From Alphaproteobacteria bacterium (GTDB lineage Bacteria; Pseudomonadota; Alphaproteobacteria; Micavibrionales; UBA2020), in assembly GCA_016124645.1 (NCBI GenBank), contig WGNE01000005.1, positions 6,103 to 70,102 on the forward strand: 64,000 bases of DNA. Reading direction: 5' to 3'. The notes under the pieces are model-generated. The model did no database searches, was not told the DNA's origin, and worked only from the letters and a program-made list of their open reading frames with translations. Below, piece by piece: positions 41,912-47,304 of this stretch (positions within the stretch are counted from its first letter, which is position 1; the number at the start of each line of letters is the position of its first letter). The position numbers and the translations under genes are program-made.

Positions 41912-41917
41912 TTGCGC

Positions 41918-42928
41918 ATGACGGACATGCCGGAAAATAATCAACCCTCCTGCTGGGTCGTGACCGAAGCTCTGGCTGGGCTGCAAAGCCAGGCGACGGG
42001 GCTGGCCGCCGCGCTGGGCTTGGTGGCGGAGGTCAAGAGCCTCGCCAAGCCGGGCGCGCCGTGGAAATTCCTGCCCTCCGGCTTCTGGCCGTCGTCGCTG
42101 GCCCTGTCGCTCTGCACTGATGACGGCGGGCTCGCGCCGCCGTGGCCGGACGTCCTCATCACCTGCGGGCGGTGCAGCGTCGCCGTTGCCCTCGCCATCC
42201 GCAAGGCATCGGGCGGGCGGACTTTCACCGTGCATATTCAGGACCCGCATATGGGCGGCGAAAACTTCGACGCCGTCATCGTCGCCGCGCATGACGCCCT
42301 GCGCGGCCCGAACGTGCTGGCGACGCAGGGCGCGTTGCACCGCGTGACGCGGGAAAAGCTGGCGGCGGGCCACGCGCAGTTCGCCGATTATTTCTCAGGC
42401 CTGCCGCGTCCCTTATTCTCCGTGCTGGTCGGCGGCGGGTTGAAGGGCCGGGGCATCGGCGCGCAGGAAATGCGCGGCTTCGCGCAAAAGCTGCACGGAC
42501 TGGCAGTGGCAAGCGGCGGCGCCCTCGCCGTCACCCCCTCGCGCCGCACAGGGCCGGAGATCGTCGCGGCGCTGGAGGGCGCGCTTTCCGGCGTGCCGCA
42601 CCGGATATGGGACGGGCAGGGGGAAAACCCCTATTTGGGCATGCTTGCCCATGCGGATGCCATCGTCGTGACCAGCGATTCCGTCTCCATGACCTCCGAG
42701 GCCTGCTTCACCGGCAAGCCCGTCTATGTCCACGACTTCGGCCTGCGCAGCAAAAGGCTGTGCCGTTTTCAGGCCGCGCTGATGGAAAAGGGCGTCACGC
42801 GGGCGCTCACCGGCGCGCCGCAGGACTGGACGCCGCCTGCGATGGACGACATGGCCCTTGCAGTCGAGTTTCTGCGCCCACGCCTCGATGTGCATTTCAA
42901 GGCCTTTTCGCCGCGCTGCGCCTGCTAG
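41918..42928 (+). CDS. ELM1/DUF1022-family protein
   Basis: QSQATGLA, VHIQDP, FDAVIVAAHD, TPSRRT, NPYLGML, VTSDSVSM.SEA. Confidence 0.8.
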   Translation: MTDMPENNQPSCWVVTEALAGLQSQATGLAAALGLVAEVKSLAKPGAPWKFLPSGFWPSSLALSLCTDDGGLAPPWPDVLITCGRCSVAVALAIRKASGGRTFTVHIQDPHMGGENFDAVIVAAHDALRGPNVLATQGALHRVTREKLAAGHAQFADYFSGLPRPLFSVLVGGGLKGRGIGAQEMRGFAQKLHGLAVASGGALAVTPSRRTGPEIVAALEGALSGVPHRIWDGQGENPYLGMLAHADAIVVTSDSVSMTSEACFTGKPVYVHDFGLRSKRLCRFQAALMEKGVTRALTGAPQDWTPPAMDDMALAVEFLRPRLDVHFKAFSPRCAC

Positions 42929-43011
42929 GTTTTTCCCCCTTGCCTGCGGCGGCCCGGACGGGCGATAATCCCGGCAGTGTAAAACATCTGCCGGACGGTG
43001 GCCGACCTTTC

Positions 43012-44097
43012 ATGTTCGCGCTCGACGATAAATGGATATGGGACTTCTGGTTCGCGCAGGAAAACGGGCGCTGCCACATGTATTTCCTGCAGGCGGACAA
43101 GGCGCTGCAGGACCCCGACCTGCGCCACTGGCACGTCAACGTCGGCCATGCGGTCTCGCAAGACCTGAAAAACTGGGAATACCTCGGCCCCTGTTTCGCG
43201 CCCGCGCCGTCGCCCGCGTGGGACGATTTCACGACATGGACCGGCAGCGTGGTCGAGGGCGAGGGCGGGCTCTGGCATTTCTTCTATACCGGCACCAGCC
43301 GCGCCGAGAACGGGCTCAAGCAGCGCATCGGCCATGCGACGAGCCGCGACCTGCACAATTGGCAGCGCGTGTCGGACGCGCCGCTGCTCGACATCGACCC
43401 CGCCGTTTACGAGGAATACACGCCCGGCCGCTGGCACGAGCGCGCCTTTCGCGACCCCTGGGTGATGCGCGACCCGCAAGGCGCGGGCTGGCTGATGTTC
43501 TTCACCGCCCGCAGCGCGGCGGGGGAGGCGGATGCGAACGGGGGCGGGACCATCGGCCTTGCGCGCTCGGACGATCTTTTTCACTGGGAGCTTTGCCCGC
43601 CGGTTTACGAGGGCGGCGATTTCGGCCACCTCGAAGTGCCGCAGGTCATCATGCTGGACGGGAAGTGGTATTGCCTGTTCTGCACCGTCGGCCGTTGCTG
43701 GTCGCAAAAATTCGCGGCGGCCTACAAGGTGCAGACCGGCGGCGACCCCGTGGGCGGCACCCATTACCTGACCGCCCCCGCGCCGACGGGCCCCTGGACG
43801 ACGGCGCCGGGGCCTTTTCTCGACGGCGACGCCTGGCTGCAGGAAGGTAAATTCAGCGACAACATGGCGCTGGCGGGGCTGCACCATGTCCGCGACAAGC
43901 GCGGGGCGCGCTATTCGGGCAAGATCGTCATGTCGGGCGAAGGGCCCGTTTTCATGGGCTTCGAGAACATCGCGGAAGAGGGCGGCTTCACCGGCCGCGT
44001 TTCCGACCCCGTGCCGATGCAGGTCGATGCGGCGGGACGGCTGCATCTCTCGCTCCCCGAAGAAACGGCGCGCGCGGAAGGCGCGGGCGGCAAGTGA
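43012..44097 (+). CDS. Clan GH-J five-bladed beta-propeller glycoside hydrolase (GH32-like)
   Basis: WIWDFW nucleophile region, WTGS, FRDP, LEVPQ; start trimmed to ATG 43012; no signal peptide. Confidence 0.8.
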   Translation: MFALDDKWIWDFWFAQENGRCHMYFLQADKALQDPDLRHWHVNVGHAVSQDLKNWEYLGPCFAPAPSPAWDDFTTWTGSVVEGEGGLWHFFYTGTSRAENGLKQRIGHATSRDLHNWQRVSDAPLLDIDPAVYEEYTPGRWHERAFRDPWVMRDPQGAGWLMFFTARSAAGEADANGGGTIGLARSDDLFHWELCPPVYEGGDFGHLEVPQVIMLDGKWYCLFCTVGRCWSQKFAAAYKVQTGGDPVGGTHYLTAPAPTGPWTTAPGPFLDGDAWLQEGKFSDNMALAGLHHVRDKRGARYSGKIVMSGEGPVFMGFENIAEEGGFTGRVSDPVPMQVDAAGRLHLSLPEETARAEGAGGK

Positions 44098-44243: not shown

Positions 44244-45146
44244 ATGACCGGGACGATCGGCATCCACCCGGAACTTTCAGGAACACCGGACGGCGCGCCA
44301 GCAGCGGCCGACGGCGATGCCGCGCGCGCGGAAAAGAAGCGCGGGTTCCGTTTCCGTTTTCCGAAGATTTCCCTGCCGAAAATGAAACGTCCGCGTTTCG
44401 GCATCCGCCGCTTCGCCCGGGAGAAAATCAACCAGCAGCTCAAGGGCGACAAGCTCACCCCCGGCCGCGCGATACAGGAGCTGCTGACCATCGCGGGTTT
44501 CGGCGGCGTGGTCGATGCCTGGAAACACCCCACCCACCGCACGACCAAGGTCATCGTCAGCCTCGTCAACAAGGCGGCGGACATGATGGCGGGCCGCTTC
44601 GTCAACATGACCATCCGCCTCGTCGCCATCTCCATGCTGACGGGTTTTTTCGGCGCGGGCTCGGTGCTTTTGACGATGGCGCTGACGGGTCTGGCGACGG
44701 GCGTGGGCTCCGCCCTTTACACCTATCACCGCAATTACCTGCACGACAAGCTGCGCGGTCCGAAGGAAGACCGCAAGCACGCGAAATACGTCACCCGCGA
44801 AAGGCTGCATCAGGCGGGCATGGCCTTCATCGGCGGCTGCGCGGGCGGCGCCTTCGGCGCATGGCTCGGCAAGACCGACTTCATGCAGTCGATCGTCAAG
44901 TCCATCAAGGGCTTCGTCCACCACCTCTTCGGCGCGGTGCAGGACGGGGTGAGCAGCGGGGCGAGCGCGGTGGAATCGGTCATCGTGCCGCAGCAGCCCG
45001 CCGCCCCGGCAACGGTCCTGCCGCCTTCGGGCACGTTGCAAAAAGCCTTCGACGGCGCGGCCTTGCCGCATGGCCCCGCAGCGACGCCCGCCGTCACCCC
45101 CAAGGCGGCGCCGGTTTTGAAGGCCGCGCCTGCATCGGGCCGCTAG
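44244..45146 (+). CDS. Hypothetical protein with Gly-rich hydrophobic segments
   Basis: GGAGG SD; typical codon style; hydrophobic hairpin and AFIGGCAGGAFGAWLG. Confidence 0.65.
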   Translation: MTGTIGIHPELSGTPDGAPAAADGDAARAEKKRGFRFRFPKISLPKMKRPRFGIRRFAREKINQQLKGDKLTPGRAIQELLTIAGFGGVVDAWKHPTHRTTKVIVSLVNKAADMMAGRFVNMTIRLVAISMLTGFFGAGSVLLTMALTGLATGVGSALYTYHRNYLHDKLRGPKEDRKHAKYVTRERLHQAGMAFIGGCAGGAFGAWLGKTDFMQSIVKSIKGFVHHLFGAVQDGVSSGASAVESVIVPQQPAAPATVLPPSGTLQKAFDGAALPHGPAATPAVTPKAAPVLKAAPASGR

Positions 45147-45180
45147 GCCGAAACCGCGAGCATCCTTTGCCCGGTTTTTA

Positions 45181-45209
45181 TTGACATAATAATTTTTTCC
45201 CGCTATCGT
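45181..45209 (+). promoter_or_regulatory. Near-consensus sigma70 promoter
   Basis: TTGACA-17-TATCGT. Confidence 0.7.
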
Positions 45210-45281
45210 GGGCCCGAGGATTCAACGGTGCGCCCGCCGCCCTGCCTGCGGCCTGCGCCTGCAAACAAGACAGGTACCGAC

Positions 45282-45818
45282 ATGGGCGCATTGACCGGAG
45301 ACCCCACTTCCTTTCCCTTCACGATTCCCTCGGTGCCGGATCTGGACGACGAAACGGATATGCGCAGCATACCGGCTGTGCCGGGCGATGACGATGAGCC
45401 TTATGTGTTCAATGTTCCCGCGCCGCCGCCGCGCCGCGCCGACCCCCCGCCGGACATGATGACCCTGCTGATCGCAAGGGGCGATACGCAAAAGCTGCGC
45501 GCCTATATCGAGGACAGCTTCTGGAAGGGCGCGCCTGTGCGTCCCGCGTGGGAACATATTGAAAAAGCATTGAAAAACGGCAAGCCCGACATGGTCAGGC
45601 TGCTCGTCGTTTATGGCGCGCAGCCCGGGGACGGCGACCTTGGAAAGCTGAAATCCGATACGGGGGAAGCTTATCCGAAATACCTGCGGCTGCTGCGCCG
45701 GGCCGGGCTGCCCGGGCTGGCGCTCGCTTTCGGCGACAGTGCCCTTTCTTCCGGCGCGGTGGCGGACGACCCCGGGACGGTGAAGGCGATATCAAGCCCG
45801 CGACCCGCTTTCCTCTGA
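45282..45818 (+). CDS. Hypothetical protein: stand-alone ankyrin-like domain, paralogous to the N-terminal domain of the next gene
   Basis: ALKNGKPDMVRLLVVYGAQP ankyrin-like core; 54/86 identical to the next ORF by manual alignment. Confidence 0.7.
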   Translation: MGALTGDPTSFPFTIPSVPDLDDETDMRSIPAVPGDDDEPYVFNVPAPPPRRADPPPDMMTLLIARGDTQKLRAYIEDSFWKGAPVRPAWEHIEKALKNGKPDMVRLLVVYGAQPGDGDLGKLKSDTGEAYPKYLRLLRRAGLPGLALAFGDSALSSGAVADDPGTVKAISSPRPAFL

Positions 45819-45858
45819 AATTTTCGACCAAGTTTCGGCTCTTATTTTCTTTTCTATC

Positions 45859-45913
45859 AATGAGTTAGATTAAAAACTCATTTGTTGACATAATAGCCTT
45901 CCGTCTTTATTAT
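45859..45913 (+). promoter_or_regulatory. Near-consensus sigma70 promoter with an upstream inverted repeat
   Basis: AATGAGTT-N8-AACTCATT (45859-45882), then TTGACA-17-TATTAT. Confidence 0.7.
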
Positions 45914-45975
45914 GGCGAATATCGTTTTTTGACCCGCGGGCCGCACGACCCGCCCAGCAGCGAAGATGCCTATCC

Positions 45976-47304
45976 ATGTTTCACGGAAAGACAAGAGTTC
46001 AACCATTGCGCCCCGCCTCGCCGCGTCCTAAGCCGGCGGCCAAGCCGGGCGCGCCGGAAAAATGCGGCTGCGGTTATCCGATCGACGAATGCGTTTCCGC
46101 GCCGAAATCCTCCAAAAAGCCGAAGCCGTCGCAGGAAAAACCGGCTCACCCGCAAAGAAAGACCGTCGCCGCCTCGGGCGAGATGATGGCCCTGATCGCG
46201 CAGGGCGACGTGAAAAAGCTGCGCGCGCATCTCGAGGAAAGCTTCTGGAAGGGCGCGCCCGAACAGCCCGTCTGGGACCACTTGCTGGAAGCCCTGAAGA
46301 CCGGCAAGCGCGAGATGGTCCGGCTGCTCGTCACCTATGACGCGCGCCCGACCGCGCAGGATCTGGAAGCCCTGAAGGCGCAAGCGGGCGAGGCCTATCC
46401 GCAATACCTGCGCCTGCTGCGGCAGGGCGGCCTGCCCACGTCCCTTGCCGCTTTCGAGGAATACGCCCGCCAGATCGAGGCAGGCAAGGAGGCTGCGGAA
46501 AAAGCGGCTTCTGAAAGAAAGCTTCGCGAGCAGGAAGAAGCCGTCGCGCGCGCCGCAGTCGAACAGTCCGTGAAAAAGGCGATGAAGATGCAGGTCGAGA
46601 GCATCCCGGCGGAATGGCGCAAGGTGCTTTTCGAAATCCAGTCCCAGAGCGCATCCGAGGCGGTCATCGCCGGCGGCGCATTGCGCGATTTGTTCAACGA
46701 CCGCCCGGTCAAGGACGTCGATATTTTCCTCAAGACCCGCGGCAGCGAGCGCAAGAACCGCAAGTTCCTGAAATCCGTCTTCAACGCCGCGGGGCTGAAG
46801 GTGCAGGAACAGGTGACGCACAACGGCGGCTACAGCATCAAGCGCAACGCCTTTCCCGATCCCGGCACGCAGAAGTTCAAGGTCGTGTCCGGCAGCGGCT
46901 ATGGCCGCATGGAAAGCGAGACGCGCGCGGAAAGCTGGAAGGTCATCGCGGGACCGGAAAAGACCGAATACAACGTCGTCTTCATGTCCGAAGAATTCGC
47001 CGCGCGGGTCAACCCGCCGGGCAGCAAGGGGCCGGGCACGATGAAAGGGATTATCGAGGCCTTCGATTTCGGCCTCTGCCAGATCGCCACCGACGGCGAG
47101 AGCATCGCGGAGACGCCGCTCTACAAAAAGGATGTCGCGGAAAAGACCATCACGCTCGACAAGGGCAATTCCTCATCGAAAGAGCATTTGCAGCGCATCG
47201 TGAAGAAATACCCGGACTGGAAGCTGGACGAAGGCGCGAAAAAAATGCTGGCTTATGAACCGCCGAAGCCGCGCCGCCCCATGGGCATCCGCGTCTGGTA
47301 CTGA
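45976..47304 (+). CDS. Ankyrin-like domain fused to a class II (CCA/poly(A) polymerase head-like) nucleotidyltransferase
   Basis: VIAGGALRDLFNDRPVKDVDIF (GGxxRD..DxD), FDFGLCQIA, RIVKKYP. Confidence 0.75.
   Translation: MFHGKTRVQPLRPASPRPKPAAKPGAPEKCGCGYPIDECVSAPKSSKKPKPSQEKPAHPQRKTVAASGEMMALIAQGDVKKLRAHLEESFWKGAPEQPVWDHLLEALKTGKREMVRLLVTYDARPTAQDLEALKAQAGEAYPQYLRLLRQGGLPTSLAAFEEYARQIEAGKEAAEKAASERKLREQEEAVARAAVEQSVKKAMKMQVESIPAEWRKVLFEIQSQSASEAVIAGGALRDLFNDRPVKDVDIFLKTRGSERKNRKFLKSVFNAAGLKVQEQVTHNGGYSIKRNAFPDPGTQKFKVVSGSGYGRMESETRAESWKVIAGPEKTEYNVVFMSEEFAARVNPPGSKGPGTMKGIIEAFDFGLCQIATDGESIAETPLYKKDVAEKTITLDKGNSSSKEHLQRIVKKYPDWKLDEGAKKMLAYEPPKPRRPMGIRVWY

What the first reader, a model, noticed from the sequence alone, without database searches (positions are those of the whole stretch)
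45282..47304. Ankyrin-like domain pair: a stand-alone copy next to a copy fused to a nucleotidyltransferase
Seen: 45456-45713 and 46183-46437 encode domains with 54/86 identical residues (SFWKGAP..ALKxGKxxMVRLLVxYxA.P..GEAYPxYLRLLR..GLP). Each is preceded by an unrelated disordered Pro-rich leader, acidic in gene 1 and basic in gene 2. In gene 2 a charged helix links the domain to a GGxxRD..DxD NTase. Inference: a toxin/effector plus decoy or antidote pair, where the free domain and its acidic leader neutralise or chaperone the enzyme; or a shared targeting module being shuffled onto different cargoes.
Basis: partly seen in the sequence, partly recalled or inferred. Interest (0 to 1): 0.7.

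Follow-up and report, generated by a model that had tools for sequence, protein, structure and literature searches.

The report
Free ankyrin module beside ankyrin–nucleotidyltransferase gene
Two neighbouring genes in an uncultured Micavibrio-like bacterium share a small ankyrin-type docking domain that this bacterial family attaches to several different enzymes and binding domains, and one of the two genes is a cut-down duplicate that keeps only that domain.

Summary
Gene 1 has an acidic Pro-rich leader and gene 2 a basic one. Gene 2 carries a GGALRD..DVD nucleotidyltransferase.

The module is a divergent ankyrin repeat unit. The enzyme is a minimal class-II (CCA/poly(A)-polymerase head) nucleotidyltransferase, closest to small phage enzymes and distantly to Gad2.

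The fusion is a conserved, uncharacterised family almost confined to one family of Micavibrio-like Alphaproteobacteria (34 of 42 genomes). It has a conserved TTGACATAA promoter, a conserved C-terminal Pro/Arg/Gly/Tyr tail and a co-occurring membrane-protein neighbour.

Gene 1 is lineage-specific: the syntenic closest relative lacks it. It is still under purifying selection and has its own copy of the family promoter.

The same module is joined to other cargoes (Lcl_C, DUF2934, a ~500-aa helical domain, ankyrin arrays) and also occurs alone. A second, independent pair of free module plus fusion exists elsewhere.

The "shuffled targeting module" reading is therefore supported. The "toxin plus antidote" reading is not, though it is not excluded. 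The biochemical function and the partner of the module remain unknown.

The parts
44244..45146 (+). Upstream membrane protein (P0003, 300 aa, hydrophobic TM-like segments, no Pfam family). It is the conserved partner gene of the NTase family.
   Evidence: 41% identical to the gene directly upstream of the Micavibrio sp. orthologue. Directly or closely upstream in about 13 of 30 related loci. Present in 30 of 42 genomes of the bacterial family, all of which also carry the module family, and adjacent to the NTase gene in most genomes of genus g3.
45181..45209 (+). Promoter-like site of gene 1: TTGACA-17-TATCGT, containing TTGACATAATA
   Evidence: The 11-mer occurs twice in the window (0.01 expected) and 14 times in the genome.
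45282..45818 (+). Gene 1: stand-alone module protein, 178 aa (196 aa from the GTG at 45228)
   Evidence: The AlphaFold model has pLDDT above 90 for residues 60-145. GC3 is 0.72-0.74, against 0.84-0.85 in neighbouring genes.
45282..45455 (+). Gene 1 acidic Pro-rich leader (58 aa). It includes EPYVFNVPAPPPRRADPPP, which resembles the Pro/aromatic peptide that precedes the module in other family members.
45456..45743 (+). Ankyrin-like module, copy 1 (five helices, about three degenerate repeats)
45885..45913 (+). Promoter-like site of gene 2: TTGACA-17-TATTAT (11 of 12), containing TTGACATAATA, in an AT-rich spacer (45819-45975, GC 0.43)
   Evidence: A TTGACATAA motif lies upstream of nearly all orthologues.
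45976..47304 (+). Gene 2: leader + ankyrin-like module + long helix + minimal nucleotidyltransferase + C-terminal tail, 442 aa
45976..46182 (+). Gene 2 basic Pro-rich leader (69 aa, contains CGCGYPIDEC). Predicted disordered, weak codon periodicity. Most family members have only about 20-25 residues here.
46183..46470 (+). Ankyrin-like module, copy 2
46444..46599 (+). Long charged linker helix (residues 157-208). Its length varies across the family, and some members carry DUF2934 here.
46609..47250 (+). Minimal class-II-type nucleotidyltransferase domain (residues 212-425). GGALRD is at 46672-46689 and DVD at 46714-46722. The family-invariant residues Y286, N333, D364, H404, R407 and K411 are present.
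47251..47304 (+). C-terminal Pro/basic tail ending in an aromatic residue (EPPKPRRPMGIRVWY), plus the stop codon
   Evidence: 42 of 58 family members end in Tyr and 51 of 58 have an aromatic residue among the last three. Similar tails occur on other module or ankyrin proteins of the same genome.

Best explanation
Gene 2 belongs to an uncharacterised protein family that is almost confined to one family of Micavibrio-like Alphaproteobacteria.

Its architecture is: a short Pro-rich N-terminal peptide, a ~90-aa divergent ankyrin-repeat module, a long helix, a compact class-II (CCA/poly(A)-polymerase head-type, Gad2/PHROG-1614-like) nucleotidyltransferase with all metal-binding residues intact, and a conserved Pro/Arg/Gly/Tyr tail ending in Tyr.

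The ankyrin module is a portable docking unit. The same bacteria attach it to other cargoes: Lcl_C, DUF2934, a ~500-aa helical domain, and ankyrin arrays. I infer that it brings its cargo to a common protein partner or site, and that the enzyme then transfers a nucleotide to an acceptor there, most likely an RNA 3' end.

The conserved membrane-protein neighbour (44244-45146) is the best candidate for a functional partner.

Gene 1 is a lineage-specific truncated paralogue. It arose by tandem duplication of the promoter, leader and module, or by duplication of the whole gene followed by loss of the enzyme part. It has been kept under purifying selection and is transcribed from its own copy of the family promoter. 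As a free docking module it would occupy the same partner sites as gene 2, acting as a competitor or modulator rather than as a dedicated antidote.

Shown: homology, folds, distribution, synteny, module shuffling, selection, promoter conservation. Inferred: docking role, acceptor, competition, any export.
For: Duplication and module:
- BLASTP E 9e-38 between the two genes.
- The module groups with gene 2 and the closest orthologue, support 100/96.
- dN/dS is 0.22-0.46 with dS 0.7-1.4.
- Gene 1 keeps family-conserved residues as well as gene 2 and the orthologue do: 27, 24 and 27 of 40.

Ankyrin nature:
- The family profile hits the ankyrin domains of RNase L (2e-7) and CLPB (1e-5).
- Nearly all of the top 50 Foldseek hits of the gene 1 model are ankyrin-repeat proteins.

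Enzyme:
- Foldseek finds class-II CCA-adding enzymes and poly(A) polymerase, E 1.6e-5.
- Small phage PolyA_pol-head enzymes match with target TM-scores up to 0.70.
- PHROG 1614 scores E 1.4e-16.
- Motif A aligns with the human CCA enzyme.
- tblastn finds Ralstonia phage enzymes at 7e-9 and SPbetaL7 Gad2 at 6e-3.

Family:
- 99 homologues, all from Alphaproteobacteria or Micavibrio MAGs.
- Present in 34 of 42 genomes of the same bacterial family and almost absent from the rest of the order.

Gene 1 is lineage-specific:
- The syntenic relative lacks it.
- It has no stand-alone homologue in the length-limited search.

Shuffling: other cargoes and free modules are seen.

Recurrence: an independent free-module plus fusion pair exists at L055.

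Partner: the membrane protein co-occurs and is often adjacent.

Promoters.
Against: - No interaction, activity or localisation was tested.
- Gene 1 has a lower GC3 (0.73 against 0.85) and the longest branch of its clade (0.7 against 0.34 and 0.47). It may therefore be under relaxed constraint or on the way to loss.
- The tree places gene 1 outside the gene 2 + orthologue pair, although with weak support (92/37). That would imply loss in the relative rather than a recent duplication.
- The opposite charges of the two leaders are what a specific gene 1-gene 2 interaction would predict. This fits the antidote or chaperone idea better than simple competition.
- The membrane-protein gene is not adjacent in genus g2.
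- The acceptor is a guess. TM-scores to CCA enzymes are low (about 0.3), and the neck and body motifs that read tRNA are absent.
Confidence: 0.55

Rival explanations
1. Toxin or effector plus antidote or chaperone. The free module, with its acidic leader, binds and neutralises or escorts the basic-leader nucleotidyltransferase. The model is the Bdellovibrio ankyrin immunity protein Bd3460, which protects the predator from its own enzymes.
For: - The two genes are adjacent, on the same strand, and driven by the same promoter type.
- The leaders carry opposite charges.
- Gene 1 is under purifying selection.
- A free module directly upstream of a module-NTase gene arose independently in another lineage.
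- A structurally solved ankyrin immunity protein of a bacterial predator is among the Foldseek hits, though only as one of many ankyrin hits.
Against: - Orthologues of gene 2 exist without any gene 1 in the syntenic closest relative and in more than 60 other loci and genomes. The enzyme therefore does not need an antidote.
- In the second pair the enzyme motif is degenerate (GGAALCD..RKVDIF), so there is little to neutralise.
- PADLOC gave only one weak, sub-threshold match for gene 2 (PtuB, E 0.0044) and none for gene 1 or the membrane protein.
- The antidote shares its fold with part of the toxin, which is not how known immunity pairs are built.
Confidence: 0.12
2. Gene 1 is a functionless leftover of a tandem duplication that is slowly decaying. 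The pair has no joint meaning.
For: - Gene 1 is unique to this genome at this position.
- Its GC3 is lower than that of all neighbouring genes.
- It has the longest branch in its clade.
- Tandem full-length paralogues, broken copies and fragments are common in the family.
Against: - The reading frame is intact after a synonymous divergence of 0.7-1.4.
- dN/dS is below 0.5.
- Family-conserved residues are retained as well as in the full-length genes.
- The fold is predicted with confidence.
- Gene 1 has its own near-consensus promoter.
- Free modules recur elsewhere.
Confidence: 0.18
3. The family is a phage-related counter-defence or defence enzyme (Gad2-like) domesticated by these bacteria. 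The ankyrin module targets an immune protein.
For: - Precomputed Pfam hits to PF26128 (Gad2), marked weak or faint.
- tblastn match to SPbetaL7/L6 Gad2, E 6e-3.
- The best fold and sequence relatives are small phage enzymes.
Against: - It is a chromosomal, vertically conserved gene with conserved synteny and promoter in one bacterial family.
- No phage genes flank it.
- There is no convincing PADLOC match; the only hit is a weak PtuB match, E 0.0044.
- Similarity to Gad2 is marginal and covers only about 100 residues.
Confidence: 0.07

Closest known systems
Class-II nucleotidyltransferases: CCA-adding enzymes and bacterial poly(A) polymerase I (Pfam PolyA_pol head, PF01743)
   Same: Motif A is nearly identical (IAGGALRDLFN..KDVDIF against IAGGAVRDLLN..QDIDFA of the human CCA enzyme). 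These enzymes are the best PDB fold matches: 4wby, 3h3a, 5hc9, 1vfg, 3aql, E 1.6e-5 and above.
   Different: Only the head is matched. TM-scores are about 0.3 and identity about 15%. The Pfam score is below threshold (16.4 against 23 bits). The neck, body and tail domains that hold tRNA are absent. An ankyrin module and a long helix lie in front, and a Tyr-ended tail follows.
Small phage nucleotidyltransferases (PHROG 1614; T7-like Ralstonia, Caulobacter, Vibrio and Pectobacterium phages) and Gad2, the anti-Gabija protein of SPbeta-like phages (Pfam PF26128)
   Same: These are the best sequence and fold relatives of the enzyme domain: PHROG 1614 E 1.4e-16, Ralstonia phage enzymes E 7e-9 over about 80% of the domain, target TM-scores of 0.55-0.70, and Gad2 of SPbetaL7 at E 6e-3. 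Gad2 is also a predicted nucleotidyltransferase whose mechanism is unknown (10.1101/2023.05.01.538930).
   Different: The phage proteins are stand-alone 170-230-aa enzymes (about 400 aa for Gad2) in phage genomes. This one is a conserved chromosomal gene of one bacterial family, fused to an ankyrin module, with a conserved promoter, tail and membrane-protein neighbour.
Ankyrin-repeat proteins, including the Bdellovibrio self-protection protein Bd3460 (PDB 5cea; PMC4686830)
   Same: The fold is stacked helix-turn-helix repeats. Bd3460 is a free ankyrin protein encoded next to an enzyme in a bacterial predator.
   Different: The module here is a short, divergent three-repeat unit that Pfam Ank models do not detect in single sequences. 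It is part of the enzyme protein as well as free. Bd3460 pairing is conserved with its enzyme, whereas the gene 1 pairing is not.
Giant-virus proteins that join ankyrin, F-box or BTB modules to a similar small nucleotidyltransferase
   Same: Among the Foldseek BFVD matches are proteins annotated as ankyrin-repeat, F-box or BTB proteins of Terrestrivirus, Megavirus, Pithovirus, Cedratvirus and Pandoravirus, and Pithovirus 'tRNA nucleotidyltransferase/poly(A) polymerase' proteins. This suggests the same design of protein-binding module plus small enzyme.
   Different: I could not check which part of those proteins is aligned, and no sequence relationship was shown. They may be independent fusions.

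Membership tests
Ankyrin repeat superfamily | Stacked ~33-residue helix-turn-helix repeats (fold) | tested here: met
   In the AlphaFold models the module is five helices with pLDDT above 90. Nearly all of the top 50 PDB Foldseek hits are ankyrin-repeat proteins over about 95 columns, with probabilities of 0.85-0.99 but weak E-values of 0.1-0.4. The target TM-score to the designed protein 3ANK is 0.56.
Ankyrin repeat superfamily | Sequence match to ankyrin profiles | tested here: inconclusive
   Pfam Ank models give no hit for gene 1 or gene 2 as single sequences. The family profile does hit ankyrin domains in the PDB: RNase L 2e-7, ankyrin-1 2.5e-6, CLPB 1e-5. The module profile also collects generic ankyrin arrays. 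The 'LL..GA.P' signature is present and the canonical TPLH is absent (read from the sequence).
Class-II nucleotidyltransferase (PolyA_pol head, PF01743) | Motif A: GGxVRD followed by DxD (metal-binding carboxylates) | tested here: met
   GGALRD at 233-238 and DVD at 247-249. These are invariant in 58 family members and align with the human CCA enzyme.
Class-II nucleotidyltransferase (PolyA_pol head, PF01743) | Score above the Pfam gathering threshold | tested here: not met
   16.4 bits against a cut-off of 23, E 0.012, covering only residues 230-270. NCBIfam CCA model: 16.6 bits against 290.
Class-II nucleotidyltransferase (PolyA_pol head, PF01743) | Neck and body with motifs B-E (RRD, EDxxR) that select nucleotide and tRNA | tested here: not met
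   The domain has only about 215 residues. Alignments to CCA enzymes stop after about 70 residues. Foldseek TM-scores are about 0.3. No RRD or EDxxR is visible in the family consensus (by eye).
Gad2 (PF26128), phage anti-Gabija protein | Sequence membership | tested here: inconclusive
   The precomputed hits are marked weak or faint. The model is absent from the local Pfam copy. tblastn to SPbetaL7/L6 Gad2 gives E 6e-3, 28% over about 100 residues.
Gad2 (PF26128), phage anti-Gabija protein | Phage or prophage location, and inhibition of Gabija | tested here: not met
   The location is chromosomal and syntenic across genera, next to O-antigen-type sugar genes and a membrane-protein gene, with no phage genes nearby. 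Gabija inhibition cannot be tested with these tools.
PHROG 1614 (phage nucleotidyltransferase) | Profile match over most of the domain | tested here: met
   E 1.4e-16. Residues 202-416 match profile positions 8-191 of 268.
Toxin-antitoxin or enzyme-immunity gene pair | The two genes co-occur and are conserved as a pair | tested here: not met
   Gene 1 is absent from the syntenic closest relative and from the flanks of 30 related loci. It is not found as a stand-alone homologue. One independent analogous pair exists.
Toxin-antitoxin or enzyme-immunity gene pair | Physical neutralisation of the enzyme by the partner | not testable with these tools
   No multimer prediction or experiment was available.

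The most novel reading that the evidence does not exclude
Micavibrio-like bacteria may have a private, modular effector code. Its parts would be a Pro-rich N-terminal peptide plus a ~90-aa ankyrin docking module, an exchangeable cargo (nucleotidyltransferase, Lcl_C lectin-like domain, large helical domain, ankyrin arrays), and a Pro/Arg/Gly/Tyr tail ending in an aromatic residue. All would be driven by a shared TTGACATAA promoter class.

The module and tail would direct proteins that lack a Sec signal to a common export route or to a target on prey or host cells. Free modules such as gene 1, created repeatedly by truncation, would tune that traffic.

The nucleotidyltransferase would then be a delivered enzyme that modifies RNA or protein of another cell.
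Probability: 0.2. Interest if true: 0.75.

Novelty: new variant of a known kind. Interest (0 to 1): 0.48.

Why it matters
How Micavibrio-type epibiotic predators act on other cells is largely unknown. This locus exposes a lineage-restricted, multi-architecture protein family built around one ankyrin docking module. The family has a predicted active nucleotidyltransferase cargo, a conserved promoter, a conserved C-terminal tail and a conserved membrane partner, in a genome that carries roughly 70 ankyrin-repeat genes.

If the module or tail proves to be a sorting or targeting code, it would give a handle for listing the effectors of these bacteria.

It would also give the first cellular context for the poorly understood small Gad2/PHROG-1614-type nucleotidyltransferases.

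If it does not, the locus is still a clean natural example of domain shuffling and of the repeated birth of single-domain genes by truncation.

Tried and rejected
- **Remnant of the enzyme after gene 1.** A relaxed tblastn (E up to 50) of 12 family members against 45101-46200 found only noise. The apparent alignment of the gene 1 tail with NTase columns in A2 is an alignment artefact.
- **The shared 11-mer TTGACATAATA as proof that the promoter was duplicated.** Weakened. The motif occurs 14 times in the genome and upstream of nearly all orthologues, so it marks a promoter class. The shared long distance from promoter to module (278 and 298 nt, against about 130 nt elsewhere) still suggests that the leader was duplicated with the module.
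- **Basic C-terminal tails as a type IV secretion signal.** Rejected. VirD4 and VirB4 are present on contig C19 of this genome, but VirD4 is found in only 9 of 42 genomes of the family, against 34 of 42 for the NTase family.
- **Defence-system membership.** PADLOC gave only a weak PtuB match (E 0.0044) on the linker region of gene 2 and nothing for gene 1 or the membrane protein.
- **Type I secretion neighbours.** They are seen in the relative's contig but are not conserved in the window or in other loci.
- **A conserved small membrane protein upstream of the 604-aa module protein.** Not found in the other genomes.
- **Literature.** Nothing on PF26128, and nothing on Micavibrio ankyrin proteins beyond Bdellovibrio Bd3460. 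The Gad2 mechanism is still unknown.
- **Read and expression evidence.** Neither transcription nor the assembly of the duplication could be checked against reads.
- **DNA of the closest relative.** It could not be fetched because the sample file is too large.
Full report
**Observation**

The region holds three co-directional genes on the + strand:
- a 300-aa membrane-type protein, 44244-45146;
- gene 1, 45282-45818, 178 aa;
- gene 2, 45976-47304, 442 aa.

BLASTP of gene 1 against gene 2 gives 60/109 identities, E 9e-38. The leaders are as described. Gene 1 has 12 acidic, 3 basic and 14 Pro residues in 58. Gene 2 has 5 acidic, 14 basic and 13 Pro in 69. Gene 2 carries GGALRD (233-238) and DVD (247-249).

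**What the parts are**

- *Gene 2 model.* An AlphaFold model built on 58 homologues has mean pLDDT 85. Residues 1-63 are disordered. Five helices span 68-150, a single long helix spans 157-208, and an alpha/beta domain spans 212-425.
- *Gene 1 model.* The same five-helix unit is predicted, with pLDDT above 90 for residues 60-145.
- *The module is ankyrin-like.* Foldseek of the gene 1 model returns almost only ankyrin-repeat proteins: IkB-beta, Bcl-3, DARPins and 3ANK (target TM-score 0.56). Probabilities are high (0.85-0.99) but E-values are weak (0.1-0.4). A profile of the family hits ankyrin domains in the PDB by sequence: RNase L 2e-7, CLPB 1e-5. Pfam's Ank models do not detect it in the single sequences. 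"Ankyrin-like" is therefore right: a divergent unit of about three repeats.
- *The enzyme is a class-II head-type nucleotidyltransferase.* Its best PDB fold matches are class-II CCA-adding and A-adding enzymes and E. coli poly(A) polymerase (E from 1.6e-5, TM about 0.3, about 15% identity). Motif A aligns almost residue for residue with the human CCA enzyme. The Pfam score is below threshold, and the neck and body that hold tRNA are missing.
- *Its nearest relatives are small phage enzymes.* These include PHROG 1614 (E 1.4e-16), 170-230-aa phage "PolyA_pol head" proteins (target TM-scores 0.55-0.70) and T7-like Ralstonia phage enzymes (tblastn E 7e-9).
- *The link to Gad2 is marginal.* Precomputed Pfam annotation calls the family PF26128 (Gad2), but only as weak or faint hits. 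tblastn to the experimentally defined Gad2 of SPbetaL7 gives E 6e-3 over about 100 residues. Gad2 is an anti-Gabija protein predicted to be a nucleotidyltransferase, and its mechanism is unknown (10.1101/2023.05.01.538930; PMC13728456).

**The fusion is a conserved family**

- Ninety-nine homologues of gene 2 were found. Most span both the module and the enzyme, and every source name seen points to Alphaproteobacteria or Micavibrio MAGs. All are annotated as hypothetical.
- Thirty loci from GTDB species genomes carry it. Nearly all are titled Alphaproteobacteria or Micavibrio MAGs; a few carry other bin labels.
- Within the window's GTDB order, the profile finds it in 34 of 42 genomes of the window's own family and almost nowhere else.
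- Invariant residues include both Gly and the Asp of GGxxRD, both Asp of DxD, and Y286, N333, D364, H404, R407 and K411. Gene 2 has all of them, so it is probably active.
- The C-terminus is a conserved Pro/Arg/Ser/Gly/Tyr tail. Of 58 members, 42 end in Tyr and 51 have an aromatic residue among the last three.
- A TTGACATAA -35-type motif with a -10 box lies about 125-145 nt upstream of the module in nearly all orthologue loci.

**Conserved neighbour**

The upstream membrane protein is 41% identical to the gene directly upstream of the Micavibrio sp. orthologue. It lies upstream in about 13 of 30 loci. In the 42 genomes of the family it is present in 30, all of which also carry the module family. 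It is adjacent to the enzyme gene in most genomes of one genus and in the window, and lies elsewhere in the genome in another genus. This is the best-supported functional link in the locus.

**Gene 1**

*It is lineage-specific.*
- The closest relative's contig (orthologue 54% identical) has the same gene order: GH32, membrane protein, NTase, then the sugar-nucleotide genes. It has no gene 1.
- A search of 5.8 billion proteins for stand-alone relatives found none.
- In the 30 loci every module is followed by the enzyme.
- No enzyme remnant follows gene 1.

*Its origin.* The module tree joins gene 1, gene 2 and the closest orthologue (support 100/96). Gene 1 is placed outside the other two, but only weakly (92/37), and it has the longest branch.

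*It is not simply decaying.*
- dN/dS between the two modules is 0.22-0.46, with dS 0.7-1.4.
- Gene 1 keeps family-conserved residues as well as the full-length genes do: 27, 24 and 27 of 40.
- It has its own near-consensus promoter, TTGACA-17-TATCGT at 45181-45209. Gene 2 has TTGACA-17-TATTAT at 45885-45913, in an AT-rich spacer.
- Both promoters lie unusually far from the module (278 and 298 nt). This suggests that the long leader existed before the duplication and was copied with it.

*One caution.* The GC3 of gene 1 is lower than that of its neighbours (0.73 against 0.85), which may mean weaker constraint or low expression.

**The module is shuffled**

- *Second cargo.* In most genomes of the family the profile finds a second hit in a ~550-670-aa frame. 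In the window's own genome this is a 604-aa protein on contig C13: module, then about 500 helical residues with no Pfam match, then the tail ...YGRGPRPGY. It is conserved across genera.
- *Wider search.* A module-only profile run against 1.84 billion representative proteins gives 880 hits at E up to 1e-10. Generic ankyrin arrays are among them.
- *Single-stretch hits.* These show the module with NTase, two NTase domains, NTase + Lcl_C, Lcl_C alone, and DUF2934. They also show it alone, in proteins of 129, 166 and 183 aa. A further 165-aa free module sits among unrelated genes in another genus.
- *A second pair.* One free module (166 aa) lies 13 nt upstream of a module-NTase gene on three independent contigs. 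It is 67% identical to a full-length family member of a related MAG and only 37% identical to gene 1. The same arrangement has therefore arisen at least twice by truncation. In that second pair the enzyme motif is degenerate (GGAALCD..RKVDIF).

**Reading**

- The "toxin plus antidote" idea lacks the conserved pairing it would need, and it fits the second pair poorly. The opposite charges of the two leaders and the recurrence of the arrangement keep it alive at low probability.
- The "shared module on different cargoes" idea is supported.
- My best explanation has three parts. The module is a docking unit for a common partner, possibly the membrane protein. Gene 2 brings a small nucleotidyltransferase to that partner. 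Gene 1 is a retained free module that would compete for or modulate the same site.
- The acceptor, guessed to be an RNA 3' end, is inference. So is the docking partner, and so is any export.

**Context that hints at export, not proof**

- TTGACATAATA occurs 14 times in the genome.
- Six of the 14 downstream genes encode ankyrin or ankyrin-like proteins. Several others end in Pro/basic tails.
- The genome has 147 Ank_2 matches in roughly 70 frames.
- Lcl_C cargoes occur without Sec-type signal peptides. This judgement is made by eye, and the assumption that such domains usually work outside the cell is from memory.
- A type IV secretion route was considered and rejected on phyletic grounds.

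**Limits**

- No multimer prediction was available.
- The relative's DNA could not be fetched.

Noticed in passing
whole genome G000 (window = C49:6103-70102): Very large ankyrin-repeat repertoire. There are 147 Pfam Ank_2 matches in roughly 70 distinct open frames of a 2.85-Mb genome, with clusters on contigs C21, C59, C58, C35, C48 and C13. This density is typical of bacteria that live with eukaryotic cells and is unexpected for a Micavibrio-like bacterium.
   Followed up: partly
window 45181-45191 and 45885-45895; 12 more sites in G000 (e.g. C2:13510-, C20:34395+, C21:28460+, C58:35385-): The extended -35 motif TTGACATAATA occurs 14 times in the genome, against roughly 0.1 expected from a rough base-composition estimate of my own. 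Six of the 14 downstream genes encode ankyrin or ankyrin-like proteins. Several others are small proteins with Pro/basic C-terminal tails. This may be a regulon.
   Followed up: partly
G000 C13:53669-55483 (L041:3170-4984): A 604-aa protein with the same N-terminal module, a ~500-aa helical region without any Pfam match, and the tail ...RRTYGRGPRPGY. It is conserved at 25-33% identity in other genera of the family. A canonical ankyrin protein lies 1.4 kb downstream (L041:6407-7381).
   Followed up: partly
G000 C21:26566-28452, C70:26093-27544, C57:25855-26454, C52:47786-48343: Other proteins of this genome end in similar Pro/basic tails with an aromatic last residue. Examples are a 628-aa ankyrin protein ending ...KPKPYNRWSGGGGWY and a 199-aa protein with an HExxH-like motif (HELTH) ending ...KKKRWFF. 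This may be a shared C-terminal signal of unknown meaning.
   Followed up: partly
window 46051-46080 (gene 2 residues 26-35): The Cys motif CGCGYPIDEC in the gene 2 leader resembles CPCGKPISRC in the C-terminal tail of a distant family member (P0067). The pattern C.CG.P[IVL]..C occurs in no other plausible frame of this genome.
   Followed up: partly
L055:4001-5563: A second, independent pair of free module plus module-NTase, found on three metagenome contigs. The enzyme has lost conserved residues (R237C, D247K, E331Q, H404Q by alignment) and is probably an inactive paralogue.
   Followed up: yes
L037:2835-4490; P0139 (585 aa); L033, L039, L040; G093:C12: Some members have one module followed by two NTase domains in one protein. 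Tandem arrays of two or three full-length paralogues occur in several genomes. One genome (G093) has eight module hits.
   Followed up: no
window 45750-45776 (gene 1 residues 157-165) and L042:2392-2889: The gene 1 tail contains SGAVADDPG. The unrelated free-module protein of another genus has SGAVVDDPG right after its module. This could be chance or a short shared motif.
   Followed up: no
G000 C19:4690-9695: VirB4 and VirD4 type IV secretion genes lie together. VirD4 is present in only 9 of 42 genomes of the family, so this is probably a mobile conjugative element.
   Followed up: partly
window 41912-42928 and 42607-44097: A protein with a full-length match to Pfam Mito_fiss_Elm1 (E 2.8e-87) lies just upstream of a GH32-type glycoside hydrolase. 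The listed ORF of the hydrolase (496 aa) very likely starts later: the relative's orthologue is 334 aa.
   Followed up: no
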